A stretch of DNA of 64,000 nucleotides from Candidatus Abawacabacteria bacterium (GTDB lineage: Bacteria > Patescibacteriota > Gracilibacteria > RBG-16-42-10). The first letter of the stretch is position 1, and each line of letters begins with the position of its first letter. Below are positions 15,054-37,383 of this stretch, one piece after another. The notes beneath the pieces are model-generated. The model searched no databases. It saw only the letters and a list, made by a program, of their open reading frames with translations, and had not been told where the DNA came from. The stretch spans positions 1,964-65,963 of the forward strand of contig JACQZO010000007.1 in assembly GCA_016207805.1 (NCBI GenBank), given 5' to 3'. A program made the position numbers and the translations under genes.

Positions 15054-15188
15054 CGAGGTCACTTGTGACCGAGTCTGGATCCTTGATCCTGTTTCCGGAA
15101 GATGTAGTCTACAAAAAGACTTTCTGACCTCAAGGAAATAGGAGCCAGGAAAGAGGAATAGTAGATCTCAACAAGAGTCTCACATTAT

Positions 15189-15265
15189 CGGGGTATGGCT
15201 CAGTTGGCTAGAGCGCCTGCTTTGGGAGCAGGAAGTCGCAGGTTCGAGTCCTGCTACCCCGACCA
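15189..15265 (+). tRNA. tRNA-Pro (anticodon UGG), CCA encoded
   Basis: Acceptor CGGGGTA/TACCCCG, D-arm GCTC-AGTTGGCTA-GAGC, anticodon stem CCTGC/GCAGG with loop TTTGGGA, T-arm GCAGG-TTCGAGT-CCTGC. Confidence 0.9.
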
Positions 15266-15463
15266 TACGAGCTCGCACCAATCCAGGCGAGCAAGTCTTA
15301 TTCCTCGTTCCTCATTCCTAGGAGCCCTTTTTATATGTGGTACTTTTCGCGAGCTCAAGGAGTGAGGAAGAAGGAACTAGGAATTGAGCGGCTTAGACCA
15401 ATATACAGCAGAGCTATTTACATATTCTCAAATCGTAGTACAGTAAATTTCTTAAGTTTTTCG

Positions 15464-20064: not shown

Positions 20065-22476
20065 TTATGCACCAATTCTTGCTAGAATTTCTTGATTTAC
20101 GAAGTCCTTGCGGACTCCATACTTTAGGCGTGAAAGCTCTTTAACGGCTTGTGCAATACGAGGATTACCCTTACCGCTAATTTCCCAAGGTTTGATAACA
20201 TTAAGGGTGAAGGGACGAGTTGGTTTGTTATTGACGCATAGCTTGAGAGCAGCCTTGAAGTCACCAATGTTCAGCAAGTCTTGTTCACTAAATACGGGGG
20301 CCATTTCTTTACCAATAACTTCAGCACTATCGACACCAATTTTGTAGGAGAGAATAGTACCCACATTACCAAAGACAGCATCACGAATTTTGGTGTCGTT
20401 TTTGTTACGAATCAGTTGGGGAATAAATTGATGGGCCATAATCAAACCTAAGCGATATTTACGTGCTTCAGAAAGAATAGTCTCGATACTATCGGTAACG
20501 AAGTTTTGGAATTCATCAATATAGAGAAAAAAATCTGTTTTTGGCCCGCTTACCCTTCTCATTGCCGCCACTTGCAGTTTGGCAACAATAATCATACCAA
20601 GAAGATTGGCATTAAAATCCCCCACCATTCCTTTACAAAGATTAACCAGGAGGATTTTTTTGTTATTCATCACATCAGAGAAATCAAAGGCAGATTTAGT
20701 CTGGCCGAGAATATTGCGCATCAAAGTGTTGGTGATAAAGGCACCAAATTTAGCGGCGAAGTAAGGAATCATTTCTTGCTTTTCTCGAGCACCAGTCATA
20801 GCCATTTGTTTTGTCCAGAAAGACTTTACAATGGGATTTTGCACCTTTGCTGATTTGAAAGATTGCCAAGTGTCATCGGTGAAAAGACGGACAATGTCCG
20901 TGATACAGCCACCTTCTGGGTCATCCATCAGGGTAAGACAACCATTGCGAAAATAATCTTGCAAACGGGGAGAGAATATTTCTTCCCCATAGAGCTTGAT
21001 CATGATATTGAGAGCTTCAGTGGAGATAAAATCTTTTTCTTCAGGAGTAGTAGCCTCCAAGATATTTAAGCCCATTGGCCGATCGGTGTCGCCTGGATTG
21101 AAATAAATCACGTCTTGCACCCGAGATTTAGGAATAAACGGCAAAATATCCTCAATAAGTTCACCGTGTGGGTCAATTACACATAATCCATTACCAAGCT
21201 GCAAATCTTGGCGAATCATGGTTTGTAATATGGTTGATTTACCAGTACCGGTTTGCCCAATGACGTAAAAATGACGGAAACGATCAGAGTGCTGAATGCG
21301 TACTTCCTTAATCTCACCACGGTAGACATTGTAGCCCAATAGCACACCATCTTTAGGTAGTTCAGCTGGTGCGGGAGCGATGCGGAATGACTGCCAAAAT
21401 AAAGCAGGGCTAGAATTGAAGCGCGTATTTGGTAAATGAAAAATACTAGCCACTTCCTCAGTATTAACTATTAATTGATTTCTTTTACCTGGTTGTAATT
21501 GGCGTAGTAAAAAATAACGTTCAATATCTTTCTTGGCCAAATACTTCTTACTTACTAGACGATTGAGATCAGGACTAGAAAACTGATTCAAAGCAGTCAA
21601 AATGTTTTTCATTTGCAGCTTGGCATTGATTTCTGTGGTGCTGGTAATCACAATGCGTAAACTAGCTGAGAAAGCGGTTTTATTTACTTTGCCTTCAATT
21701 AACTTTACTTTTTCTTCTTCGCGGGGAGTTAATCTCTTGGGCTCACTTTTGCTACTGCTAGTGCTGATACTGGTAAAGAAATGCCACAATGCTTTAAGTG
21801 GACTAAATACGGTAAAGTTTCCGGGCAATGGCTTGCCTTGAAATAAATCTTTAGCTACTTTCTTACCCTTTTTGGCGCGTCTTTTATTTGGCACACTAAC
21901 GGTGAGTTGTAGGCTAGCTAAATCACTTTCACCTAATTTGCTGAAAGCATTAATTACGGCATTCAATGGATCTGATTCCAATTGGCTATAAGTCCTCAGT
22001 GGTAAATAGTGAGGTTCTTTGAATACTAGTAAAGTACTCTCAGTTGCCATTCCCTTTTGGAAAAGTGGATACTCCGGCAAAGTGTCTATTGAAGCGTCAG
22101 GATAATAAGAAGTGATTTGTTTCTCTACTATGGTTTCTAAACCACGAGGCACTGCAATATAAAAGTACATGAGTTGTTTACTGGCTACCCACTCAAAAGA
22201 AAGTGTTTCCGGATATTGCCAGACTTGATACCATTTATGTTTGAGCAAACTACTAAGATTTACTAGTAACTGCTCCATAATACTGACACTTTCTTTGAAG
22301 TCCTTTTCTTTGTCCTTACTTCTTTCTTGTTCTTTGGCATCCTCTACTCGCGGTACAGTGACACGCAAAAATACTAACTTTAAAGCAAATTTGACGGCAT
22401 GATACTGGCGTAAAAAATGCAGCAAGACTGCAAGGAAGATGATCGCAAGTCCAGTACTAATGAAGAGATATGGCAT
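20065..22476 (-). CDS. membrane-anchored TraD/VirD4 (type IV coupling protein)-like P-loop NTPase
   Basis: N-terminal TM helix. Walker A GQTGTGKST, Walker B FFLYIDEFQNF, then ARKYRLGLIMAHQ. This arrangement is typical of T4CP/DUF87-type ATPases. Confidence 0.7.
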   Translation of the reverse strand: MPYLFISTGLAIIFLAVLLHFLRQYHAVKFALKLVFLRVTVPRVEDAKEQERSKDKEKDFKESVSIMEQLLVNLSSLLKHKWYQVWQYPETLSFEWVASKQLMYFYIAVPRGLETIVEKQITSYYPDASIDTLPEYPLFQKGMATESTLLVFKEPHYLPLRTYSQLESDPLNAVINAFSKLGESDLASLQLTVSVPNKRRAKKGKKVAKDLFQGKPLPGNFTVFSPLKALWHFFTSISTSSSKSEPKRLTPREEEKVKLIEGKVNKTAFSASLRIVITSTTEINAKLQMKNILTALNQFSSPDLNRLVSKKYLAKKDIERYFLLRQLQPGKRNQLIVNTEEVASIFHLPNTRFNSSPALFWQSFRIAPAPAELPKDGVLLGYNVYRGEIKEVRIQHSDRFRHFYVIGQTGTGKSTILQTMIRQDLQLGNGLCVIDPHGELIEDILPFIPKSRVQDVIYFNPGDTDRPMGLNILEATTPEEKDFISTEALNIMIKLYGEEIFSPRLQDYFRNGCLTLMDDPEGGCITDIVRLFTDDTWQSFKSAKVQNPIVKSFWTKQMAMTGAREKQEMIPYFAAKFGAFITNTLMRNILGQTKSAFDFSDVMNNKKILLVNLCKGMVGDFNANLLGMIIVAKLQVAAMRRVSGPKTDFFLYIDEFQNFVTDSIETILSEARKYRLGLIMAHQFIPQLIRNKNDTKIRDAVFGNVGTILSYKIGVDSAEVIGKEMAPVFSEQDLLNIGDFKAALKLCVNNKPTRPFTLNVIKPWEISGKGNPRIAQAVKELSRLKYGVRKDFVNQEILARIGA

Positions 22477-22529
22477 GAAACGAAAAATACGCTACATTTA
22501 TATTGTAAACTACCTTTATCTCCAAGTAC

Positions 22530-22865
22530 ATGAAGATGACACATCGTGATGAAGCTTTTGTCTGTCAAAATTGTCATAATCCAGTAGCCAAAAGAGGTGG
22601 CGGATACTGTCGTAACCATTGCCCCATATGTCTACATTCACTGCATGTAGATTTGCAAGTACCAGGTGATAGGCAAAGTACATGCCAAGGAATCATGGTC
22701 CCGGTAGATGTGATTTACAATACGCATAAAACAGTTTTCCAAATCATCCATCAATGCCAGACCTGTAAATATAAACATGCCGTAAGCATTGCCAAGGATG
22801 ATAATCAGGAACTTGTTCTGAAAGTTACTCGTGCCAGCGCGGAACGGAAGATGATGGACATCTAA
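22530..22865 (+). CDS. RNHCP domain-containing zinc-ribbon protein
   Basis: CQNCHNPV...GGGYCRNHCPICLHSLHVD contains the eponymous RNHCP motif. A second CxxC (CQTC) is present. Confidence 0.7.
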   Translation: MKMTHRDEAFVCQNCHNPVAKRGGGYCRNHCPICLHSLHVDLQVPGDRQSTCQGIMVPVDVIYNTHKTVFQIIHQCQTCKYKHAVSIAKDDNQELVLKVTRASAERKMMDI

Positions 22866-22866
22866 G

Positions 22867-22901
22867 TAGAGCTAAGAGCGAAGAGCTGAGAGCTAAGAGT
22901 G
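22867..22901. repeat. 7-nt periodic array (TAGAGCT AAGAGCG AAGAGCT GAGAGCT AAGAGTG)
   Basis: Direct reading. It fills the spacer between the convergent stops at 22865 and 22906. Confidence 0.85.
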
Positions 22902-22905
22902 CGGC

Positions 22906-24036
22906 TCAATATCTGTAGGTGGCTAGGATGGGCTCTTGGAAGTCTTCTTGGATATGTACTTGGCCATTATTTTTGATGGTTTCTATGGTGGCTAGATTGA
23001 TTAGCTCATGATCGTATGGCAATGGCTTTCGATGCAGATCTACTGACATGGTTTCAGGGTCAAACTTGCCCCATAGTTCACTTTCACCATTGATGAGCAT
23101 CTCGTGTATGCGGCCACTATGAGCAGCAACTAAAATAGCTTCAGGCGCTATCGATCCCTTACCATTGGCAATTAGACTGGCGTATTTGTTAGCAACAGTA
23201 TCGGCATTGATAGTGAACGTTTCAGCCAAGAGCTGATAGCCTTCTTGAGCTAATTCTTTGTCTGATTTGAGATCAGCATTGCCGATAATCGCTTTATCCA
23301 GATAATAGGGATAATGACTCAATTGGCGGTAGCGACTGAGATGCCGTTCGGTACCAGCTAAGATGACGAAGTTTTTATTGGAGAGAAATAACTTTTGGAT
23401 AGCTTTGTCAATCATGCGAAAGAAAAGGGTAATATCATTTTTACCTTCATCTTTTTGGCCGCCATGACCATGAACAAAACCAGCACGACCATAGTTGGCA
23501 TTACCATGAGTTTGTAAATGTTCTTCGAGAGCAACGTACTGAAACTCTTCTTCTAAGGAATGAGGGACATCTTTTAAAAAGATACTTTCTCCTTGACCAT
23601 GGGAACAATAAACTAAGTGGGCATTCGCAAGACTGAGAGCCAAAATATAAAAGTCCTTTTCATACAGGGTAGCTTTTAATAGGGGGATAATGTAAAAGGC
23701 ATTATCGACAGTTACTTTGTTTGTCACTTCATAGGGCAGAAAGTAATAAGAAAAATGATTGCTGGAGGCAAAAATAGCAACGCCTTTTTGTGCTTTTTGC
23801 CAGAATGAACCATTCGTGAGCAATGTTTTGGCTTTAGATAGAATACGATTACTAGCTTTGGGCTCCAACCCTCGTTCCGCTAATTGTCTCTCTGCTTCAT
23901 GCATTAAATTCTTCCATTGAATAATTTCTTTACTGCTACCTTGACCTGATGCACTGGCAGTGAAATAAAAAGAGACTCCTGGCTCCGGGGTGGCCTGAAT
24001 TAACTTTTGTAGAGCTGCCTGGGTAAGAATAGTCAT
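22906..24036 (-). CDS. hypothetical protein, possibly a bacterial archaeo-eukaryotic release-factor-like (baeRF) family member
   Basis: The N-terminal pattern L.KLI....EPGVSFYFTAS...KEIIQWKNLMHEAERQL and the later FYILALSLANAHLV match my recollection of baeRF family proteins. Not verified. Confidence 0.4.
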   Translation of the reverse strand: MTILTQAALQKLIQATPEPGVSFYFTASASGQGSSKEIIQWKNLMHEAERQLAERGLEPKASNRILSKAKTLLTNGSFWQKAQKGVAIFASSNHFSYYFLPYEVTNKVTVDNAFYIIPLLKATLYEKDFYILALSLANAHLVYCSHGQGESIFLKDVPHSLEEEFQYVALEEHLQTHGNANYGRAGFVHGHGGQKDEGKNDITLFFRMIDKAIQKLFLSNKNFVILAGTERHLSRYRQLSHYPYYLDKAIIGNADLKSDKELAQEGYQLLAETFTINADTVANKYASLIANGKGSIAPEAILVAAHSGRIHEMLINGESELWGKFDPETMSVDLHRKPLPYDHELINLATIETIKNNGQVHIQEDFQEPILATYRY

Positions 24037-31114: not shown

Positions 31115-32650
31115 ATGGAAACTGTTCGTATACGTGACAAAAAGACTTTTTCTATTTTGCCTGCTGAGCAGCAATATTGTGAGCAACGCCGGATTCCTTT
31201 AGCACAAGTCACTCCTTTAGAAGGTTTTAGGGAAATGTTCGCCTTTAGAAATGAAACAACTTTGTTCAATCGTATCTGTGATAAAAGTGGTCGAGATATC
31301 ATTAGTATTCACCGACCAAATACAGCCTTCCCAGTGTATGCTCAAGATATTTGGCTTAGTGAAGATAATGATCCCCTGCAATACGGCCGACCATATGACT
31401 TCACTAAACCTTTTTTCCAACAATTCTTTGAGCTTTCTAATACTGTCCCTCGTGAAGCTCAATTAACCCTCAATGCTGAGAATAGTCCCTATGTAAATAT
31501 TAATGTGAATGTAAAGGACTGTTATTTTACTTTCAACTGTCTCAATAGTCAGGAATGCATGTATGGCAATAAAGTCTATTCCAGTAGGGATTGTATAGAT
31601 AATATCTATATTTCTAACTGTGAGCTCTGCTATGAATGCATCAACTGTCATGGTTGCTATGATCTCAAGTGGGCACAACATAGCTTCAATTGCAGAAACT
31701 CCCTGTTTCTTTATGGCTGTCGTAATTGCTCGGATTGCTTTGGTTGTGTTGGCCTAGAACATAAACAATTTTGTCTGTGGAATCAGCAATATACACCTGA
31801 AGAATATAAAACCAGAATAGCAAAGCTTTTTACCGGCAAATGGTCAGAGCTGGTTACATTGCAGCAACAGTTTGTGGAGCTCATAGCATCTTCAGGCTAT
31901 GTATATAATTCAAATGTGAATAATGTAGATTGTACTGGTGAATATATTGATAATTGTAAAGATTGCACCAACAGTTTCATCACTAAAAATAGTGATCATG
32001 TTAGTGACTCATTTAACATGCAAAACTGCAAAGACTGTATGCGTAGTAGTTTTATCTTTGATGGTCAATTCATTTATCGAAGCTTTGCCATGAGTAAGGG
32101 ACCATACAATTGTCAGTTTTGTTATATGTCTCCAGGGCTTGCGGAAAGTCAGTATTGTGCGTATGTATTTCACTCGGAAAAAATGTTTGGGTGTATCGGT
32201 TTCCCTCGCAGATCTGCCTATTGTATTCTGAATAAACAGTATAGCAAAGAGGAATATGAAAATTTATTGCCCCGAATTATTACTCATATGAAAACAACAG
32301 GAGAATGGGGACAATGGTTTCCGCTCTGGATGAGCGACTTTCCTTATAATGATACACTAGCTCAAGAGTATTTTCCGCTTACTCCTGAACAGGCGCAGCT
32401 TATTACTGCTCGATGGAATACCAATAAACACTATCCAGTTACAGAAAAAGTCAACACAATTCCAGATGATATCCATTCAGTTACAGATAGGATACTGGAT
32501 GAAGTATTACAAGATCATACTAATAAACGGGCTTATAAACTACAAAGAAAAGAACTCGAGTTTTATAGAGAGCATACTATTCCAATACCTCGTGAATGTT
32601 TTGATAGTAGAAATCTGAGACGCTCTAAAGCATTGATTGCTTTTCAATGA
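31115..32650 (+). CDS. conserved Cys-rich protein of unknown function with internal duplication
   Basis: The N-terminal FRNETTLFNRICDKSGRDIISIHRPN..FPVY....W.SE.NDPLQYGRPYDF..PFF.QF and the C-terminal ELEFYREHTIPIPRECFDSR match a family I recall as uncharacterised. There are two CxxC-dense modules, each ending in C[LI].N[QK]QY[TS].EEY. Confidence 0.6.
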   Translation: METVRIRDKKTFSILPAEQQYCEQRRIPLAQVTPLEGFREMFAFRNETTLFNRICDKSGRDIISIHRPNTAFPVYAQDIWLSEDNDPLQYGRPYDFTKPFFQQFFELSNTVPREAQLTLNAENSPYVNINVNVKDCYFTFNCLNSQECMYGNKVYSSRDCIDNIYISNCELCYECINCHGCYDLKWAQHSFNCRNSLFLYGCRNCSDCFGCVGLEHKQFCLWNQQYTPEEYKTRIAKLFTGKWSELVTLQQQFVELIASSGYVYNSNVNNVDCTGEYIDNCKDCTNSFITKNSDHVSDSFNMQNCKDCMRSSFIFDGQFIYRSFAMSKGPYNCQFCYMSPGLAESQYCAYVFHSEKMFGCIGFPRRSAYCILNKQYSKEEYENLLPRIITHMKTTGEWGQWFPLWMSDFPYNDTLAQEYFPLTPEQAQLITARWNTNKHYPVTEKVNTIPDDIHSVTDRILDEVLQDHTNKRAYKLQRKELEFYREHTIPIPRECFDSRNLRRSKALIAFQ

Positions 32651-32967: not shown

Positions 32968-33213
32968 CTAATATTGCAATATCCTTTTCTTTAAAACAGC
33001 CTTCCCTGAACCAGTCTTAAAATAGCTCTCTAACTTATGTACCTGCACTTCAGTCGGCAAAACAATATAACCAACAAGTCCTAATGGTCGGTAATGTTTG
33101 GTGGATTGGACATTGCCATCAGTATGTTGCTGTAGTCTTCTTTTCAGATTGCCGGTTGAGCCAATATATAGAAAATCTGATTGCTGACTTTTGAGGAAGT
33201 AAACAAAAAACAT
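32968..33213 (-). CDS. GIY-YIG nuclease family protein (small stand-alone, YhbQ-like)
   Basis: FFVYFLKS...DFLYIGSTGNLKRRLQQH is the GIY...YIG...R motif. 81 aa. Confidence 0.8.
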   Translation of the reverse strand: MFFVYFLKSQQSDFLYIGSTGNLKRRLQQHTDGNVQSTKHYRPLGLVGYIVLPTEVQVHKLESYFKTGSGKAVLKKRILQY

Positions 33214-33352
33214 AGATAAAGATTAAGCTCTATCTAGTGTAGTGGAGGAAAAATGAAACTTTGGTTCACCTGCTTATTTGTTGAGAATATAAAAAGCTAG
33301 CTCAGTAGTGAGCTGTAAATGATCATTAGGCATTCTTGCATGCCGTGGCATT

Positions 33353-33486
33353 GCCTGCGCGCTAATCGCGACTTCGGCAGCCTAGCACTGCGCTGACTCA
33401 GCGGAGAGCAATGTCTTCAAACAAACAGACATGTAAAACTACCCTTCAGAGATGGCCCCGCCAGCCGAAGCTCTCCGAGCGCAGGC
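33353..33486 (-). ncRNA. GC-rich structured element, copy 1, starting directly after the CCA of tRNA-Val (class unknown)
   Basis: Roughly four-fifths identical by eye to 35148-35287, with 36 nt next to the tRNA showing 1 mismatch. Terminal inverted repeat GCCTGCGC/GCGCAGGC. Internal hairpins show compensatory differences between the copies. The strand is assumed from the tRNA orientation. Confidence 0.5.
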
Positions 33487-33562
33487 TGGTGGACAGTACA
33501 GGACTCGAACCTGTGACCCTCTCGGTGTAAACGAGATGCTCTACCAACTGAGCTAACTGTCC
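33487..33562 (-). tRNA. tRNA-Val (anticodon UAC), CCA encoded
   Basis: Reverse complement: GGACAGT TA GCTC AGTTGGTA GAGC A TCTCG TTTACAC CGAGA GGGTC ACAGG TTCGAGT CCTGT ACTGTCC A CCA. Confidence 0.9.
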
Positions 33563-33598
33563 TTGAAATATCTAAAATTACACTTTAAACACGGGTGC

Positions 33599-33627
33599 AC
33601 TATAACGATGTTTAAATTAGCTGACAA
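33599..33627 (-). promoter_or_regulatory. sigma70-like promoter upstream of tRNA-Val
   Basis: Minus strand: TTGTCA (33622-33627), a 17-nt spacer, then TATAGT (33599-33604), 36 nt before the tRNA 5' end. Confidence 0.4.
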
Positions 33628-33700
33628 GTATTTTTAAATCCAGGTTTATTCACATGATAAATAAGGCTTTGCGAAAACAAAAGCTTGGGTTTAAAGCTTT

Positions 33701-34342
33701 TTACATTGCCTCAACAAATTGTCGCTTGAGCTTTCTTTGTTTGAGCTTGACTGCCAGAGCTGGAATGCCAAAAAAAGCGCTACTTCCTATCACCAAACTA
33801 GCGGGAACAAAATTTCCCACCATCATGATAGTTAGAAATGCCATTTCACAGTAAAAAAGTGGGTGATGAAGATAAAACGCCATCCAGTCATTACCTTGCT
33901 TTTTTACATACTGTGCTAACTGACGACGAGAATGTTTAAGAAAGAAGCCACGCATGCTGATATCAAATGGCCACAGAAGTGGTACTCCGCCTACCCACAC
34001 CATATCCATGATAATATGACTAAATACACCAATACTTACTAGCACTACAACCTGATATAGTAATACACTACCGGTGAGTAGTGAAATCAATAGTAAAGGT
34101 ATGAGTATGGCCAAATAGAACAGTGGAGCGTGCATGAATGTCTGTCTATGATTGACTGCATCTGCAGTGAATATGGTATTTTTACGCTTTTTGAAAAGCA
34201 TGTAATACAGCAAATCAAAATCAGGCAAAGCTCCGGCAACAAATCCTAGAGCAAAAAGCCATTTATTATTGCTTACATTCCAACGGTTGAGGAAATAGGC
34301 TGTGGTGGCTGCTGTTGTTACTACATGCGTAGGAAACATCAT
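33701..34342 (-). CDS. YdjM-like membrane-bound metal-dependent hydrolase
   Basis: MMFPTH..., GALPDFDLL, HRQTFMHAPLF, FSHIIMD. These His/Asp motifs embedded in TM helices are typical of the YdjM (DUF457) family. Confidence 0.6.
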   Translation of the reverse strand: MMFPTHVVTTAATTAYFLNRWNVSNNKWLFALGFVAGALPDFDLLYYMLFKKRKNTIFTADAVNHRQTFMHAPLFYLAILIPLLLISLLTGSVLLYQVVVLVSIGVFSHIIMDMVWVGGVPLLWPFDISMRGFFLKHSRRQLAQYVKKQGNDWMAFYLHHPLFYCEMAFLTIMMVGNFVPASLVIGSSAFFGIPALAVKLKQRKLKRQFVEAM

Positions 34343-34404
34343 AACAATTTTGCTAACAAAAACGATCAAAGCCAGGCTATCATAACTAAACTATTGTGCC
34401 CAGT

Positions 34405-35067
34405 TTACAAGGCATCTTTTTTGTCACCTAATATTTCTTGTAAACTAAAAATATCCTTTCCTACCCACTCGACAGAAATACATTCCAAAAGGAACTCTTC
34501 TCCTGCTGAACCTGGATTGTAAAGTGGATCACCACACAAAGGATTCCCAATAGCAGCCAAATGTACACGTATTTGATGACGCGCACCCTGAGTAATAGCT
34601 ATTTCTAGTAGCGTATTTCCCCCAATTAATTTAACTACTCGATAATCCGTAATAGAGTCTCGCCATTGTCCCCTCTTTTTCTGTCCCGCATCTTTATAAA
34701 CAATCATTCGTGACTTCTTGGTGGGATGATGCGCAATTGGCCAATCGATGTAACCAGCAGCTCTTTCCATATGTCCCAACACTTTGGCAAGGTACTTCTT
34801 CTTAATTTTTCCCTCATCTGCTGCTTTGATGAATGATTTGAACGCTTGATCATTGCAAGCAAACAAAACCAAGCCTGAAGTAATAGTATCAAGTCTATAC
34901 AATAAACCTCCTTCACCCACCTTAAATCCATTCACTTGAGATAATTCAGGAAATTGAACAAGTACCTGTTCTACCAATGAATCCGGCTTTTCTCCTGGCG
35001 TGGTTGGTACATTAGCAGGTTTATATACCATTAAATAGTCGCCTTTCTTTTTGTATTGTAATACCAC
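34405..35067 (-). CDS. RluA family pseudouridine synthase (no S4 domain)
   Basis: YLMVYKPANV, the catalytic-loop LYRLDTITSGLVLFA (HRLD..TSG variant), KKYLAKV, and GARHQIRVHLA. GTG start. Confidence 0.8.
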   Translation of the reverse strand: MVLQYKKKGDYLMVYKPANVPTTPGEKPDSLVEQVLVQFPELSQVNGFKVGEGGLLYRLDTITSGLVLFACNDQAFKSFIKAADEGKIKKKYLAKVLGHMERAAGYIDWPIAHHPTKKSRMIVYKDAGQKKRGQWRDSITDYRVVKLIGGNTLLEIAITQGARHQIRVHLAAIGNPLCGDPLYNPGSAGEEFLLECISVEWVGKDIFSLQEILGDKKDAL

Positions 35068-35147
35068 TAGAAAATTTTAAGTATTCCAAGAATAAGGAAG
35101 ATTCATGGGAAATACAAACAATAAAATATTCTTAGGCAACATGGCTA

Positions 35148-35287
35148 CCTGCGCGTCGCATGAACGACGACTTCGGTCGCCTAGCACTGCGCTGGCTCAG
35201 CGGAGTGCATTATCTGCGAACAAGCAGACATGGCAAACTAAGCCTATCAGTGATGGCCGCGCCAGCCGAAGCTCTCCGAGCGCAGGC
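35148..35287 (-). ncRNA. GC-rich structured element, copy 2, starting directly after the CCA of tRNA-Leu (class unknown)
   Basis: Homologous to 33353-33486 (see that entry). The track ORF 35105-35413 (+) is an artefact of this GC-rich block. Confidence 0.5.
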
Positions 35288-35373
35288 TGGTGCTGTGGAG
35301 AGGACTTGAACCTCCACCCCCTTGCGAGGACCAGCCCCTCAAGCTGGCGTGTCTGCCATTCCACCACCACAGC
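35288..35373 (-). tRNA. tRNA-Leu (anticodon GAG), long variable arm, CCA encoded
   Basis: Reverse complement: GCTGTGG...CCAGC TTGAGGG GCTGG TCCTCGCAAGGGGGT GGAGG TTCAAGT CCTCT CCACAGC A CCA. Confidence 0.88.
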
Positions 35374-35378
35374 ATGTC

Positions 35379-35412
35379 AATTACTAATTCCCAATTACGA
35401 ATTACTAATTTG
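35379..35412. repeat. degenerate heptanucleotide array (CAATTAC TAATTCC CAATTAC GAATTAC TAATTTG)
   Basis: Direct reading. It lies between the rplU stop and the tRNA-Leu 5' end. Confidence 0.8.
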
Positions 35413-35424
35413 AGGGGAGGGATA

Positions 35425-35718
35425 TTACCAGGCTAGAATCTCTACTGCTGTGTATTGTTGTCGATGACCCTTTTTTCTCATATATCTCTTGCGACGTAAC
35501 TTTTTGAAGACTAGTACCTTATCTCCTTTGCCATGCTCCAAAATCTTACCTTTGACTTCCGCCTTGGGAGCTAAATCCAACTTTTCACCATCTACGATAG
35601 TAATGGCGTTACCAAAAGAAACAATATCACCAACTTCACCTGCGAGTTTTTCGATCTCGATTACTTCGCCGGGCATTACTTGTTCTTGTCTACCAGAGAC
35701 ATGGATAACTGCGTACAT
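35425..35718 (-). CDS. rplU: 50S ribosomal protein L21
   Basis: MYAVIHVSGRQEQV.PGEVIEIEKL....GD...F......V.....L....V.GKILEHGKGDKVLVFKKLRRKRYMRKKGHRQQYT. Start trimmed to MYAVI. Confidence 0.9.
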   Translation of the reverse strand: MYAVIHVSGRQEQVMPGEVIEIEKLAGEVGDIVSFGNAITIVDGEKLDLAPKAEVKGKILEHGKGDKVLVFKKLRRKRYMRKKGHRQQYTAVEILAW

Positions 35719-35821: not shown

Positions 35822-36859
35822 CTAATTAATAAGCAAGTTATAAGCAATCTTAGCAATTTCAGAGCGGCGAACAGATTGATTGGGGTAGAAGTTATTATTC
35901 TGACCAGAAACTATACCTTCATTGGCAGCGTAGTCAGTATATGCACGTTGCATTGGGGCTGCTACATCAGAAAATGATTGTGCTGAGCTCGCATTGAACA
36001 TGCTGATTTCATTTTGCTTTTGAAAAGCATTTAATAAAATCTGTAAACATTCAAAACGAGTAGCAGGTCGATCTGGATAGAAATAAGTACCTGACTCAAT
36101 AATGCTCACCATTTCCGCTATTTCTATATAACGAAACATAGCATGACTAGGAGGGACATCCTCAAATGTGAGTACAGGAATTTCTAGTGTTGGGCAATCT
36201 GGAAAGCAGGAGGAAATGGTATCACGATGCAAACCCTTAGCTAAAGCGGCATTTACTGCGATCTTCACTACTTCAGCTCTAGTAATAGAATTTTCTGGGC
36301 CAAAATTGCCATTACCATAGCCACGGACAATCCTTCTAGTATAGAGATCCATGATATAGCTATAGGCCCAATAACTTGCTGGAACATCCTTAAATGTGGT
36401 GGTTGGAGTGTTAATTACTATTGTTTTTCTCAACTCTTGATGAATGGGGCTAGCGACATTTACTTGAATGCTATAAGGCCCTTCACCAACTTGAAGATAT
36501 GGAGGAGCAACACATTGAGCGCCAGGAGGACAGTTGGTATAAAACTTTTGATTCCAAGTATCTACTACTTTTGTTTCAAAAGGAGCCAAAGTGATACTGC
36601 GAAAGTCCATAGTACAAAGAGCTAGCGGATCTAACAAAGAAAGCTCATTATTGTTACGATCAAACACTCTAAAGAAACGATGGCATTGCCCCATTTCATC
36701 GATAGTAATGTTACCGCTAGTATCATTAGTAACTTTAATTTGGATTGTTTCCCCTGCAGAATAAGTATTCTGCAGGTTAAGATGGGCTACTGAAGGTGGT
36801 AGAGATACTGGCGCTGTAGTTACCAATGTAGCTGTGAGTAGCGAAATGAAGGTGATCAT
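35822..36859 (-). CDS. secreted SLH-domain protein
   Basis: Signal-like MITFISLLTATLVTTAPVS. Three C-terminal SLH repeats: FKDVPASYWAYSYI...GYGNGNFGPENSITRAEV, FEDVPPSHAMFRYI, FSDVAAPMQRAY...NFYPNQSVRRSEIAKI. Confidence 0.75.
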   Translation of the reverse strand: MITFISLLTATLVTTAPVSLPPSVAHLNLQNTYSAGETIQIKVTNDTSGNITIDEMGQCHRFFRVFDRNNNELSLLDPLALCTMDFRSITLAPFETKVVDTWNQKFYTNCPPGAQCVAPPYLQVGEGPYSIQVNVASPIHQELRKTIVINTPTTTFKDVPASYWAYSYIMDLYTRRIVRGYGNGNFGPENSITRAEVVKIAVNAALAKGLHRDTISSCFPDCPTLEIPVLTFEDVPPSHAMFRYIEIAEMVSIIESGTYFYPDRPATRFECLQILLNAFQKQNEISMFNASSAQSFSDVAAPMQRAYTDYAANEGIVSGQNNNFYPNQSVRRSEIAKIAYNLLIN

Positions 36860-36969
36860 AGAGATTATGTTTCTGTTAGTGAGTACGCAAGCTTGAGAGA
36901 GTGTGTTACCCGGAAAACCCCTTTTGCATTTCGCCTTATCGAAGGGGAAGTTTAATGTGTTTATTAAGC

Positions 36970-37383
36970 TTATTCTCGAGACCAAGTGTTCCTTCCCTTA
37001 CTTAAGAGAAGGTGACGAGGATGGGTTTGCAATACCCAAGTCACTATAGCATGCTCCACTTGCTCTACCTGATCCAACACATCATTATTTGTAAACCGTA
37101 GCACGGTAATGCCAAACTTTTCATTTAGCACTTTGGACCGCCATTGATCATAGATAAGTTGATTCTTATGGTAGCCGCCATCGACTTCAATCACTAAGCG
37201 CAATTTAGAACAATAGAAATCAGCGATAAAGTTGGCTAATGGCTTTTGGCGTAAGAACTTAAAACCTAATAGCTGCCTTCTGCGCAAGAGTTGCCAAAGC
37301 TTGTGTTCGGCAGTAGTCAAAGGCTTTCTATTCTTACGAGCAAATGTTTTTAGTTTTTTATTGTAAGCAAAGAAATAAGGCAT
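36970..37383 (-). CDS. DUF559 (Vsr/restriction-endonuclease-like) domain protein
   Basis: LT.AE.KLWQLLRRRQLLGFKFLRQKPL.NFIADFYC..L.LVIEVDG..H...VLRF.NNDV is the classical DUF559 pattern. Confidence 0.8.
   Translation of the reverse strand: MPYFFAYNKKLKTFARKNRKPLTTAEHKLWQLLRRRQLLGFKFLRQKPLANFIADFYCSKLRLVIEVDGGYHKNQLIYDQWRSKVLNEKFGITVLRFTNNDVLDQVEQVEHAIVTWVLQTHPRHLLLSKGRNTWSRE

What the first reader, a model, noticed from the sequence alone, without database searches (positions are those of the whole stretch)
33353..33486. GC-rich ~135-nt structured element fused to the 3' CCA of tRNA-Val, followed by a GIY-YIG nuclease gene (copy 1 of 2)
Directly after the encoded CCA of tRNA-Val (minus strand) the sequence reads GCCUGCGCUCGGAGAGCUUCGGCUGGCGGGGCCAUC...GCUCUCCGCUGAGUCAGCGCAGUGCUAGGCUGCCGAAGUCGCGAUUAGCGCGCAGGC. 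It is strikingly GC-rich in an AT-rich genome.

Structural features:
- Terminal inverted repeats GCCUGCGC/GCGCAGGC.
- A long imperfect helix (CUGCGCUCGGAGAGC pairing with GCUCUCCG[CUGAGUCA]GCGCAG).
- Internal hairpins.

A second copy follows tRNA-Leu 1.8 kb away (35148-35287). The 36 nt adjacent to the tRNA differ at 1 position between the copies. Two internal hairpins differ in sequence but keep their pairing. On the plus strand these are CGCG-cuaau-CGCG versus CGUCG-caugaa-CGACG, and AUGUCU-...-AGACAU versus UCUGC-gaacaa-GCAGA. That is what a structured RNA would show, rather than a coding or purely repetitive element.

Similarity begins exactly at the tRNA 3' end, so tRNA 3' processing would release the element with a defined 5' end. 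I cannot assign it to a known RNA class: I see no SRP, 6S, tmRNA, RNase P or hammerhead hallmarks. Downstream of this copy, on the same strand, lies an 81-aa GIY-YIG nuclease.
Basis: partly seen in the sequence, partly recalled or inferred. Interest (0 to 1): 0.75.

Follow-up and report, generated by a model that had tools for sequence, protein, structure and literature searches.

The report
Structured repeat fused to tRNA ends
A GC-rich, non-coding element of about 140-175 bases starts on the very next base after the CCA end of many different tRNA genes in a few related Peribacteria-like (candidate phyla radiation) genomes; it matches no known RNA family and is probably made as a tRNA tail, but its function and its way of spreading are unknown.

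Summary
Both window copies (33344-33486 after tRNA-Val; 35140-35287 after tRNA-Leu) belong to a small repeat family, called F1 here. I found 11 junctions in three genomes, behind tRNAs with 9 different anticodons. In every case F1 starts on the base after CCA and points the same way as the tRNA.

Sister genomes carry the same tRNA-Leu and tRNA-Val genes without F1. Blocks of F1 are 97-100% identical between genomes whose coding DNA is only about 70% identical. A central segment varies in sequence but keeps its length. A 3' stem-loop shows compensatory changes.

There is no Rfam match, no coding frame and no tRNA-like or HDV-like fold. No linked gene was found; the GIY-YIG gene sits next to this copy only.

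Best reading (about 0.4): a lineage-specific structured RNA module, transcribed as the tRNA trailer and released when the CCA end is cut, that has spread among tRNA genes.

Rivals:
- a new cis-acting cleavage or processing element;
- a plain DNA repeat;
- part of a terminator module.

Transcription, cleavage and the mode of spread were not shown. Only 8 full copies exist, so structural support is modest.

The parts
33599..33627 (-). Promoter-like site TTGTCA-17-TATAGT, about 37 nt upstream of tRNA-Val
   Evidence: Consensus scan, 10 of 12 matches. This is a prediction only.
33487..33562 (-). tRNA-Val(tac) with encoded CCA
   Evidence: ARAGORN; Rfam tRNA model, 73.7 bits.
33344..33486 (-). F1 element copy 1 (143 nt). 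It starts on the base after CCA and ends at GCCACG.
   Evidence: The nhmmer family profile scores it at E 7e-37.
33453..33486 (-). Conserved 5' module GCCTGCGCTCGGAGAGCTTCGGCTGGCGGGGCCA. It contains the hairpin GCUGGC-GGG-GCCAKC. It can also form the alternative hairpin CCAGCC..GCUC-GGA-GAGC..GGCUGG, which includes the tRNA CCA.
   Evidence: Nt 5-34 are identical, or differ at one position, in all 8 aligned full copies; nt 1-4 (GCCT) are present only in the six tRNA-adjacent ones.
33410..33452 (-). Central AU-rich segment. Its sequence varies but its length is constant; in this copy it holds the hairpin AUGUCU/AGACAU.
   Evidence: Segment length is 46-48 nt in the 8 full copies at 54-75% identity. 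Hairpin.
33375..33409 (-). Conserved middle block GCTCTCCGCTGAGTCAGCGCAGTGCTAGGCTGCCG
   Evidence: CGCTGAG..AGCGCAGTGCTAGGC is invariant in 8 copies.
33344..33382 (-). 3' domain. Stem P4 (GGCUGCC / GGCA..GCC) encloses the internal loop GAA/GCA and the variable hairpin P5 (CGCG-AUUAG-CGCG here).
   Evidence: The same fold is predicted in 8 of 8 copies. 94% of cells are paired, 3 pairs change on both sides, and covariation exceeds 500 of 500 shuffles.
33290..33314 (-). Intrinsic-terminator-like hairpin AGCTCA-CTAC-TGAGCT followed by a T run. It closes the predicted tRNA-Val + F1 transcription unit and lies upstream of the GIY-YIG gene.
35288..35373 (-). tRNA-Leu(gag) with encoded CCA, directly downstream of the ribosomal protein L21 gene
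35140..35287 (-). F1 element copy 2 (148 nt), about 110 nt upstream of the RluA-type pseudouridine synthase gene start (35031)
   Evidence: nhmmer E 8e-36.
35254..35287 (-). Conserved 5' module of copy 2. It differs from copy 1 at one position.
35140..35181 (-). 3' domain of copy 2. P4 is GGCGACC / GGUAGCC, with an A-U pair where other copies have G-C. P5 is CGUCGU-UCAU-GCGACG.

Best explanation
F1 is a lineage-specific, non-coding, modular RNA element of 140-175 nt.

Proposed way of working:
- It is transcribed from the tRNA promoter as the 3' trailer of the tRNA.
- It is freed with a defined 5' end by the endonucleolytic cut that makes the tRNA CCA end.
- It has spread to many tRNA genes in one sub-clade of Peribacteria-like bacteria. 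It always lies between the CCA and the older trailer/terminator module.
- Its conserved core (the 5' module, the middle block and the base of the 3' domain) is kept by selection. Peripheral hairpins vary, lengthen or are inserted.

Shown here: the exact junction, the co-orientation, empty sites in sister genomes, conservation well above that of neighbouring coding DNA, lack of coding capacity, and partial structural support.

Inferred: co-transcription, release by tRNA 3' processing, and the mode of spread.

Two routes of spread fit the data, and I cannot choose between them:
- Recombination between tRNA loci. The shared downstream trailer module gives homology on one side. On the other side only the ACCA microhomology is shared, and selection removes every junction that damages the tRNA.
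- An RNA-end or tRNA-structure-directed insertion activity encoded elsewhere in the genome.
For: Position and context:
- 11 of 11 copies with the intact 5' end GCCT abut CCA and point the same way as the tRNA. The tRNAs are Val-tac, Leu-gag (three genomes), Leu-tag, Ala-tgc, Gln-ctg, Gln-ttg, Pro-cgg, Pro-ggg and a truncated tRNA read as Ile-gat.
- The junction leaves no room for a promoter or terminator. The Val unit is bracketed by a promoter-like site and a terminator.
- Orthologous tRNA-Leu(gag) and tRNA-Val(tac) loci in four sister genomes (L022, L024, L029, L034) have no F1 after CCA.
- In L008 and L009, F1 lies between the CCA and a trailer module. That module follows CCA directly at tRNA-Arg in the same genome and at tRNA-Leu in L022.

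Conservation:
- The window and the MAG share only 68-71% DNA identity in the flanking YdjM and RluA genes. The F1 blocks are 97-100% identical.
- The central segment keeps its length while its sequence drifts.

Structure:
- Extra hairpins are inserted at fixed peripheral points.
- The 3' domain shows compensatory pairs.
- The sense strand folds 5-20 kcal/mol better than the antisense strand in 8 of 8 copies.

Signs of recent turnover:
- Near-identical copies (96% in the variable segment) sit at different tRNAs of one genome.
- There are tandem and truncated copies, and contigs break inside F1.
Against: - There are no expression data. Transcription, processing and stability are all inferred.
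- Helices P1-P3 never covary. P2 has three uncompensated mismatches.
- Folding z-scores are unremarkable for several copies.
- Only 8 full copies from 2 genomes exist, so the shuffle-based covariation test is weak, and related copies can beat shuffles without any structure.
- No enzyme that could place the element was found. Only loci of 8 kb or less per hit and one 64-kb window could be inspected.
- A highly structured GC-rich trailer directly after CCA would block 3' exonucleases. The host therefore needs an endonuclease that cuts exactly there, and this was not shown.
Confidence: 0.4

Rival explanations
1. F1 is a cis-acting processing element. Either it is a new self-cleaving ribozyme that cuts at its own 5' edge, or it is a structure that directs a host endonuclease. 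In both cases it produces the tRNA CCA end. The job would be the same as that proposed for the HDV-like theta ribozymes found behind phage tRNAs.
For: - Conservation starts exactly at +1 after CCA and is strongest in the first 34 nt. That is the pattern expected of ribozymes that cleave at their 5' end.
- The conserved core with variable and expandable peripheral stems looks like a functional RNA.
- A predicted 5' hairpin, CCAGCC...GGCUGG, includes the CCA.
- The two substitutions in the L027 copy fall in the loop of its inner stem GCUC-NNN-GAGC.
- A structured trailer directly after CCA requires endonucleolytic release.
- Precedent: theta ribozymes were proposed to process tRNA 3' trailers (PMC10879173).
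Against: - No match to any ribozyme family in Rfam at E<=10.
- The HDV-like topology is excluded.
- Sister genomes and several tRNAs in the same genomes do without F1, so it is not needed for tRNA maturation in general.
- The second, non-tRNA-adjacent copies lack the first 4 nt.
- Nothing here tests catalysis.
Confidence: 0.2
2. F1 is a plain DNA-level repeat of the MITE, REP or PATE type. It is moved by a transposase or recombinase encoded elsewhere that recognises tRNA genes. It has no RNA function, and its conserved blocks are protein-binding sites.
For: - 8-bp terminal inverted repeats are present.
- There are subterminal hairpins about 21 nt from the left end and 11-14 nt from the right end.
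- Presence/absence differs between genomes.
- Copies are multiple, some nearly identical, some tandem or truncated, and assemblies break in them.
Against: - No target-site duplication. The nearest repeat of CCA lies 3-4 nt beyond the right inverted repeat.
- No autonomous partner was found among the exact matches to the 5' end in one representative genome for each of 185,579 species.
- The right-hand hairpin varies in sequence with compensation. That is odd for a protein-binding site.
- A 3-5 nt target cannot explain 11 of 11 tRNA ends.
- The strict single orientation and the sense-strand folding bias fit RNA better.
Confidence: 0.2
3. F1 is only an elaborated part of the tRNA trailer and terminator. 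It would act as a stabilising or insulating structure, homogenised among loci by gene conversion, with no separate identity.
For: - tRNAs of this clade carry another shared trailer module: a hairpin, a pyrimidine-rich arm, a terminator-like hairpin with a T run, and a purine-rich arm. F1 sits next to this module and recombines with it.
- F1 copies cluster by genome rather than by locus. That points to concerted evolution.
Against: - F1 itself has no hairpin followed by a T run. The terminators lie further downstream.
- Sequence conservation far above that of coding DNA is not expected of a mere terminator.
- Gene conversion alone does not explain exact junctions at CCA behind unrelated tRNAs.
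Confidence: 0.12
4. F1 is an assembly artefact or a remnant of an integrase attachment site.
For: Many MAG copies lie at contig ends, and one copy contains a run of N.
Against: - The same element occurs in three independent assemblies, including inside long contigs.
- Similarity begins after CCA, not inside the tRNA, and no duplicated tRNA 3' segment is present.
Confidence: 0.02

Closest known systems
Theta ribozymes (minimal HDV-like ribozymes behind phage tRNAs; PMC10879173)
   Same: A structured RNA directly downstream of tRNA genes and in the same orientation. It is proposed to take part in tRNA 3' trailer removal.
   Different: F1 lacks the HDV-like nested pseudoknot topology and matches no HDV-like model. 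It is two to three times longer. It follows an encoded CCA, whereas only 4.5% of theta-associated tRNAs encode CCA. It is chromosomal in a candidate-phyla-radiation bacterium, not in a gut phage.
Non-coding RNAs expressed behind a tRNA or tRNA-like unit and released by tRNA processing enzymes: plant dicistronic tRNA-snoRNA genes, MHV68 tRNA-miRNA units, MALAT1-mascRNA (from my own knowledge)
   Same: A passenger RNA is fused to a tRNA-type unit, uses its promoter, and is cut free at the tRNA boundary.
   Different: Those examples are eukaryotic or viral, and the passengers belong to known RNA classes. F1 is bacterial, multi-copy behind many different tRNAs, and of unknown class. Its processing was not shown.
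E. coli tyrT 178-bp trailer repeats / rtT RNA (from my own knowledge; Rfam RF00391)
   Same: Repeated sequence in a bacterial tRNA operon trailer, transcribed with the tRNA and processed to a small RNA.
   Different: The tyrT repeats occur at one locus and include a copy of the tRNA 3' end. F1 occurs at many unrelated tRNAs and starts after CCA. There was no Rfam match.
Bacterial MITE, REP or PATE repeats (Correia, RPE, Nezha, REP/BIME and IS200/IS605-derived elements; from my own knowledge)
   Same: Small, non-coding, GC-rich, palindromic, multi-copy elements that differ in presence between relatives, some of them co-transcribed with neighbouring genes.
   Different: None is known to me to sit exclusively and exactly at the 3' end of tRNA genes in one orientation. 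F1 shows no target-site duplication and no autonomous relative.
Neurospora Mauriceville/Varkud retroplasmid variants with tRNA-CCA joined to the plasmid transcript 5' end (from my own knowledge)
   Same: An exact junction between a mature-type tRNA CCA end and the 5' end of another RNA. There it is explained by reverse-transcriptase template switching.
   Different: That system is mitochondrial and encodes its own reverse transcriptase, and the CCA there is not genomically encoded. No reverse transcriptase was seen here. CCA is encoded at all tRNAs of this clade, so the test used there cannot be applied.

Membership tests
HDV-like / theta ribozymes | Lies directly 3' of the tRNA, with cleavage at its own first nucleotide | tested here: inconclusive
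   The position requirement is met. Cleavage cannot be tested with these tools.
HDV-like / theta ribozymes | Nested double pseudoknot: nt 1-7 (P1) pair with a strand a few tens of nt downstream, followed by P4, a catalytic C in J4/2 and the P2 3' strand | tested here: not met
   The only consistent partner of nt 1-7 lies 14-16 nt before the end of conservation. No conserved sequence follows it that could form P4 or P2.
HDV-like / theta ribozymes | Match to the Rfam covariance models of the family | tested here: not met
   No hit at gathering scores or at E<=10.
Other known self-cleaving ribozymes (hammerhead, twister, twister-sister, pistol, hatchet, hairpin, glmS) | Match to the family covariance model | tested here: not met
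   cmscan of 33000-35600 at E<=10 listed only the two tRNAs and noise hits.
MITE (non-autonomous DNA transposon) | Terminal inverted repeats | tested here: met
   GCCTGCGC ... GCGCAGGC, 8 bp, in the tRNA-adjacent copies. The conserved sequence continues about 9 nt beyond the right repeat.
MITE (non-autonomous DNA transposon) | Target-site duplication flanking the repeats | tested here: not met
   The left flank is ACCA. The right inverted repeat is followed by AUG/UAG and then CCA, so there is no direct duplication abutting both ends.
MITE (non-autonomous DNA transposon) | Autonomous element with the same ends that encodes a transposase | tested here: inconclusive
   None of the 10 loci of the MAG that hold the 5' 20-mer, nor the window, has such an ORF. 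Whole genomes could not be read.
MITE (non-autonomous DNA transposon) | Filled and empty sites among relatives | tested here: met
   tRNA-Leu(gag) and tRNA-Val(tac) are empty in L022, L024, L029 and L034. They are filled in the window, L019 and L027.
IS200/IS605-derived PATE or REP element | Conserved subterminal hairpins at both ends bound by a Y1 transposase, insertion 3' of a 4-5 nt target, and a TnpA or RAYT gene in the genome | tested here: inconclusive
   The hairpin spacing resembles this family. However, the right hairpin varies in sequence, and a 4-5 nt target cannot give 11 of 11 tRNA ends. The presence of TnpA or RAYT cannot be tested without the full genomes.
tRNA or tRNA-like RNase P substrate (mascRNA type) | Cloverleaf, or acceptor plus T-arm mimic with a 3' NCCA | tested here: not met
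   No tRNA-clan hit on the element at E<=10. ARAGORN at 70% thresholds gives inconsistent calls that differ from copy to copy.
Integrase attachment site / genomic island border at a tRNA | Similarity starts inside the tRNA, and a copy of the tRNA 3' segment is repeated at the far end | tested here: not met
   Similarity among copies behind different tRNAs begins after ACCA. No tRNA 3' segment is repeated.
Intrinsic terminator | GC-rich hairpin directly followed by a T run | tested here: not met
   The scan finds the terminator 30 nt beyond the element, not in it.
Protein-coding sequence | A reading frame kept open across copies | tested here: not met
   Each of the six frames has stops in at least one of three copies. 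A protein search with the longest antisense frame found nothing.

The most novel reading that the evidence does not exclude
F1 is a new class of catalytic or end-directed RNA element tied to the mature tRNA 3' end. One version is a self-cleaving (and possibly self-ligating) ribozyme that cuts exactly after CCA. The other is a retro-type or RNA-end-templated mobile element that joins its 5' end to tRNA CCA ends and is then copied back into tRNA genes. Either would explain the base-exact junction behind unrelated tRNAs without any DNA target sequence.
Probability: 0.15. Interest if true: 0.85.

Novelty: new variant of a known kind. Interest (0 to 1): 0.6.

Why it matters
If F1 is an RNA made as a tRNA tail, it would be a bacterial case of a passenger RNA that uses tRNA promoters and tRNA end processing for its own expression, and that has colonised a large share of the tRNA genes in a reduced genome.

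It also raises a concrete question about tRNA 3' maturation in candidate-phyla-radiation bacteria. A GC-rich structure that begins on the base after CCA should stop 3' exonucleases. So either a nuclease cuts exactly after CCA or the element does the cutting itself.

The base-exact junctions behind at least 9 different tRNA species ask for a targeting mechanism that no described bacterial repeat has.

On the practical side, the element breaks short-read assemblies of these genomes at tRNA genes.

The caveat is reach. The family was found in only three or four thinly sampled genomes, so its wider importance is open.

Tried and rejected
**Searches that found no further family members**
- Rfam at gathering scores and at E<=10: only the tRNAs.
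- Metagenome scan with the internal block: one chance hit in a eukaryote-like coding region.
- Viral scans with three patterns: nothing, or one chance hit in a phage gene.
- Phage and plasmid BLAST: no match.
- The 20-mer hits in Myxococcaceae and other GC-rich genomes are chance matches of 20-25 nt only.
- Protein-space search with the antisense ORF, to catch mis-called genes over other copies: nothing.
- RluA homologues, used to recover the 3' half of the L027 copy for a direct test of helix P2: the matching contig was not found.
- The two edge-protein look-ups added no new tRNA.

**Readings considered and rejected**
- Coding sequence: no frame stays open.
- tRNA-like or tmRNA-like fold: inconsistent low-threshold calls.
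- HDV-like fold: the partner of nt 1-7 is in the wrong place.
- Link to GIY-YIG: no homologue near any other copy. A small GIY-YIG gene in L034 sits in a different context.
- Transposase, integrase or reverse transcriptase near copies or in the window: none among the ORFs inspected.
- BLAST of the other tRNA trailers of the window (behind Gly and Pro) against all loci: no significant similarity. The 'family 2' module therefore rests on inspection by eye only.

Full report
**1. What is in the window**

tRNA-Val(tac) lies at 33487-33562 and tRNA-Leu(gag) at 35288-35373, both on the minus strand and both with an encoded CCA. The sequence that follows each CCA is GC-rich: 0.59 and 0.61 against 0.40 for the window. 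The two stretches are 86% identical over 120 nt, E about 1e-35, and nothing else in the window resembles them. The first 36 nt differ at one position. Comparison with further copies shows that conservation runs to a GCCAYG motif. The copies are therefore 33344-33486 (143 nt) and 35140-35287 (148 nt). I call the family F1.

**2. The organism**

The window carries ordinary housekeeping genes: L21, LepA, PheST, an RluA-type pseudouridine synthase, YdjM, FtsW, ABC transporters and S-layer-homology proteins. The closest public genomes are labelled Candidatus Peribacteria. More distant RluA relatives are labelled Abawacabacteria and Peregrinibacteria. The lineage is thinly sampled. L21 has two relatives at about 80% identity and four at about 70%; after that, identity drops below 56%.

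**3. The family**

I scanned one genome for each of 185,579 species for a 20-mer from the 5' end. It hit 10 loci of a single Peribacteria MAG (CAZEGN01), plus chance 20-25 nt matches in GC-rich genomes.

- Wherever enough upstream DNA is present in the MAG, F1 starts on the base after the CCA of a tRNA, in the same orientation. The tRNAs are Gln-ctg, Gln-ttg, Pro-cgg, Pro-ggg, Leu-tag and Ala-tgc.
- At L019, L005, L008 and L017 the contig ends inside the tRNA. What remains is the T arm, acceptor strand and CCA of tRNA-Leu(gag), of a tRNA I read as Ile(gat), and of the two tRNA-Gln. L003/L017 and L015/L008 are probably the two sides of the same two tRNA-Gln loci.
- A third organism (L027, a Logan assembly) has F1 after tRNA-Leu(gag). 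That contig ends 25 nt into the element.

In all there are 11 junctions in three genomes, behind 9 anticodons, and all are exact. Many contigs end inside F1, as expected of a repeat that breaks short-read assemblies.

The metagenome scan, three viral scans, and the phage and plasmid BLAST searches gave only chance hits or nothing.

**4. Empty sites**

Syntenic loci in four sister genomes carry the same tRNA-Leu(gag) and/or tRNA-Val(tac): L022, L024, L029 and L034, with L21 about 70% identical where known. After CCA they have unrelated short sequences. The family profile finds nothing in them. F1 was therefore gained in the sub-clade that holds the window, the MAG and L027.

**5. Position relative to the older trailer**

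Several tRNAs of this clade are followed by another module, which I recognised by eye. It consists of a short hairpin, a pyrimidine-rich arm (CTTATCC...), a terminator-like hairpin with a T run, and a purine-rich arm (GCTCRAGGA..GGATAAGG). It occurs:
- behind tRNA-Gly and tRNA-Pro in the window;
- behind tRNA-Arg in the MAG;
- behind tRNA-Leu in L022;
- upstream of RluA in L030.

BLAST does not link these stretches, so this second family is only a lead.

In L008 and L009, F1 sits between the CCA and this module. In L017 and L020 a truncated F1 is joined to the purine-rich arm at a shared GTGCTC. There are also second copies that do not touch a tRNA. They lie 56-70 nt after the first copy and begin at GCGCTCGG, so they lack GCCT. 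Further truncated copies occur as well.

**6. Conservation**

L019 of the MAG is syntenic with the window (RluA, YdjM). The coding DNA is only 68-71% identical. In contrast, nt 5-34 of F1, the block CGCTGAG..AGCGCAGTGCTAGGC and the 3' end are invariant or differ at single positions across all 8 full copies.

The central segment is 46-48 nt long in the 8 full copies, but only 54-75% identical in sequence. Copies group by genome rather than by locus. L019a (behind Leu-gag) and L005b (behind Ile) are 96% identical in the variable segment, and the two window copies are each other's closest relatives. This pattern means either selection on the conserved blocks combined with exchange or spread inside each genome, or recent transfer between genomes.

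**7. Not coding, not a known RNA**

- No frame stays open across copies.
- A protein search with the antisense frame found nothing.
- Rfam gives no hit at E<=10.
- ARAGORN at relaxed thresholds gives inconsistent calls.
- The HDV-like fold is excluded because the only partner of nt 1-7 lies at the 3' end of the element.

**8. Structure**

RNAalifold proposes:
- P1: nt 1-9 with AGCGCAGUGC;
- P2: CGGAGAGC with GCUCUCCG;
- hairpin P3: GCUGGC-GGG-GCCAGC;
- 3' domain: P4 (GGCUGCC with GGYAUGCC).

None of P1-P3 covaries, and P2 has three uncompensated mismatches.

The 3' domain folds the same way in 8 of 8 copies. P4 closes a GAA/GCA internal loop and a hairpin P5 whose sequence differs between copies (CGCG/CGCG, GUGU/ACAC, CGUCGU/GCGACG, and a 9-bp version in L008). 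Three copies carry an extra hairpin inserted in the loop. On an alignment with that insertion removed:
- 94% of cells pair;
- three pairs change on both sides;
- the covariation score beats 500 of 500 shuffles;
- slid controls pair at 22-46%.

With 8 related sequences this is supportive, not proof.

The sense strand folds 5-20 kcal/mol better than the antisense strand in all 8 copies. A second hairpin insertion occurs in the P3 loop of L020 and of a truncated copy in L011.

An alternative 5' hairpin, CCAGCC-UGC-GCUC-GGA-GAGC-UUC-GGCUGG, would include the tRNA CCA. The two substitutions of the L027 copy fall in its GGA loop. Under the P2 model they would need compensation, which I could not check. 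The fold of the 5' half is therefore unresolved.

**9. Transcription context**

At the Val copy a promoter-like site (33627-33599) precedes the tRNA. The only terminator-like site lies at 33314-33290, 30 nt beyond F1 and before the GIY-YIG gene. There is no space for signals between the tRNA and F1. Co-transcription is thus the natural reading, but it remains an inference.

**10. The GIY-YIG gene**

The 81-aa protein is a GIY-YIG domain. It is separated from F1 by the terminator and has no homologue near any other copy. Another small GIY-YIG gene occurs in L034 in a different place. The association is coincidental.

**11. How it most likely works**

I favour, at about 0.4, a structured RNA module that rides behind tRNA genes. 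It is transcribed from the tRNA promoter, cut free when the CCA end is made, and kept by selection on a conserved core.

The exact junction can arise in two ways:
- An activity that recognises the tRNA or its mature 3' end could place the element there.
- Recombination between tRNA loci could do it. The shared downstream module supplies homology on one side. The only sequence shared on the other side is ACCA, and every junction inside the acceptor stem is lethal for the tRNA.

I cannot choose between these two.

A cis-acting cleavage element, whether a new ribozyme or a nuclease guide, is the most interesting rival (0.2). It has a precedent in the theta ribozymes proposed to trim phage tRNA trailers (PMC10879173). 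However, F1 fails the HDV-like membership tests. A plain DNA repeat (0.2) and an elaborated terminator module (0.12) remain possible.

**12. Verdict**

F1 is a real, reproducible and unannotated repeat family with an unusual and strict relation to tRNA 3' ends. Its class and function are not settled. It is narrow in distribution and rests on few sequences. Interest is 0.6. I file it as a new variant of known kinds (bacterial interspersed repeats and tRNA-linked passenger RNAs) rather than as a member of any described family.

Noticed in passing
window 15054-15400 (+); also L009 800-690 (-), L008 205-290, L009 3745-3670 (-), L022 10394-10510, L030 1-45: There is a second kind of tRNA trailer. 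After CCA and 2-3 nt come a short hairpin, a pyrimidine-rich arm (CTTATCCTC...), a terminator-like hairpin with a T run, and a purine-rich arm (GTGCTCGAAGGA..GGATAAGGAT). It follows tRNA-Gly and tRNA-Pro in the window, tRNA-Arg in the MAG and tRNA-Leu in a sister genome, and it lies downstream of F1 copies. I recognised it by eye; BLAST does not link the copies. The two complementary segment pairs occur in crossing order, so the fold may be a pseudoknot or two alternative structures.
   Followed up: partly
L017 29-115; L020 4121-3990 (-): These are chimeric trailers. The F1 5' part is joined to the purine-rich arm of the second trailer type at a shared GTGCTC. This looks like a deletion through microhomology.
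   Followed up: partly
L020 4093-4050 (-); L011 2585-2630; L005 2686-2650 (-): A hairpin of about 30 nt, ACGTACATCGAAGCTTCAGCGTAGATGTAGG, is inserted in the loop of the F1 hairpin P3. It recurs in three loci and may be a small mobile or duplicated module of its own.
   Followed up: no
L019 5195-5028 (-), L009 3890-3850 (-), L011 2460-2495: An optional hairpin, CAGTGTCCTCCGAAGGCTTTGCGCAGGAGG, is inserted in the internal loop of the F1 3' domain in three copies. L008 carries a related GGCTTTGCC loop inside an extended P5.
   Followed up: partly
window 32968-33213 (-); L034 296-550: Small stand-alone GIY-YIG genes (81 and 84 aa) sit in different intergenic places near tRNA loci in two genomes and are absent from the syntenic sites of relatives. 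They may themselves be mobile.
   Followed up: partly
window 35822-37383 (-): An S-layer-homology protein gene and a DUF559 (Vsr-like endonuclease fold) gene lie between lepA and the L21 gene. In the sister genomes L022 and L024, lepA is directly followed by L21. In L027, an S-layer-homology gene likewise precedes the L21 gene.
   Followed up: no
window 31115-32650 (+); L008 418-2055: A cysteine-rich protein of 511-545 aa has no Pfam match. Its homologue in the MAG lies directly downstream of the tRNA-Gln + F1 locus.
   Followed up: no
window 20065-24036 (-): There is a VirD4/TraD-like coupling-protein homologue (803 aa). Nearby is a protein of the bacterial archaeo-eukaryotic release factor (baeRF) families (376 aa).
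   Followed up: no
window 35105-35413 (+): A 102-aa ORF runs antisense through F1 copy 2 and tRNA-Leu. It is an artefact of the GC-rich sequence. It was not called as a gene in the protein collection.
   Followed up: yes
L003, L004, L005, L008, L015, L017, L019, L027, L032, L033 (contig ends): Short-read contigs of three organisms end inside F1 or the neighbouring tRNA, and L005 has a run of N inside a copy. tRNA loci of these genomes are therefore under-assembled in public MAGs.
   Followed up: partly
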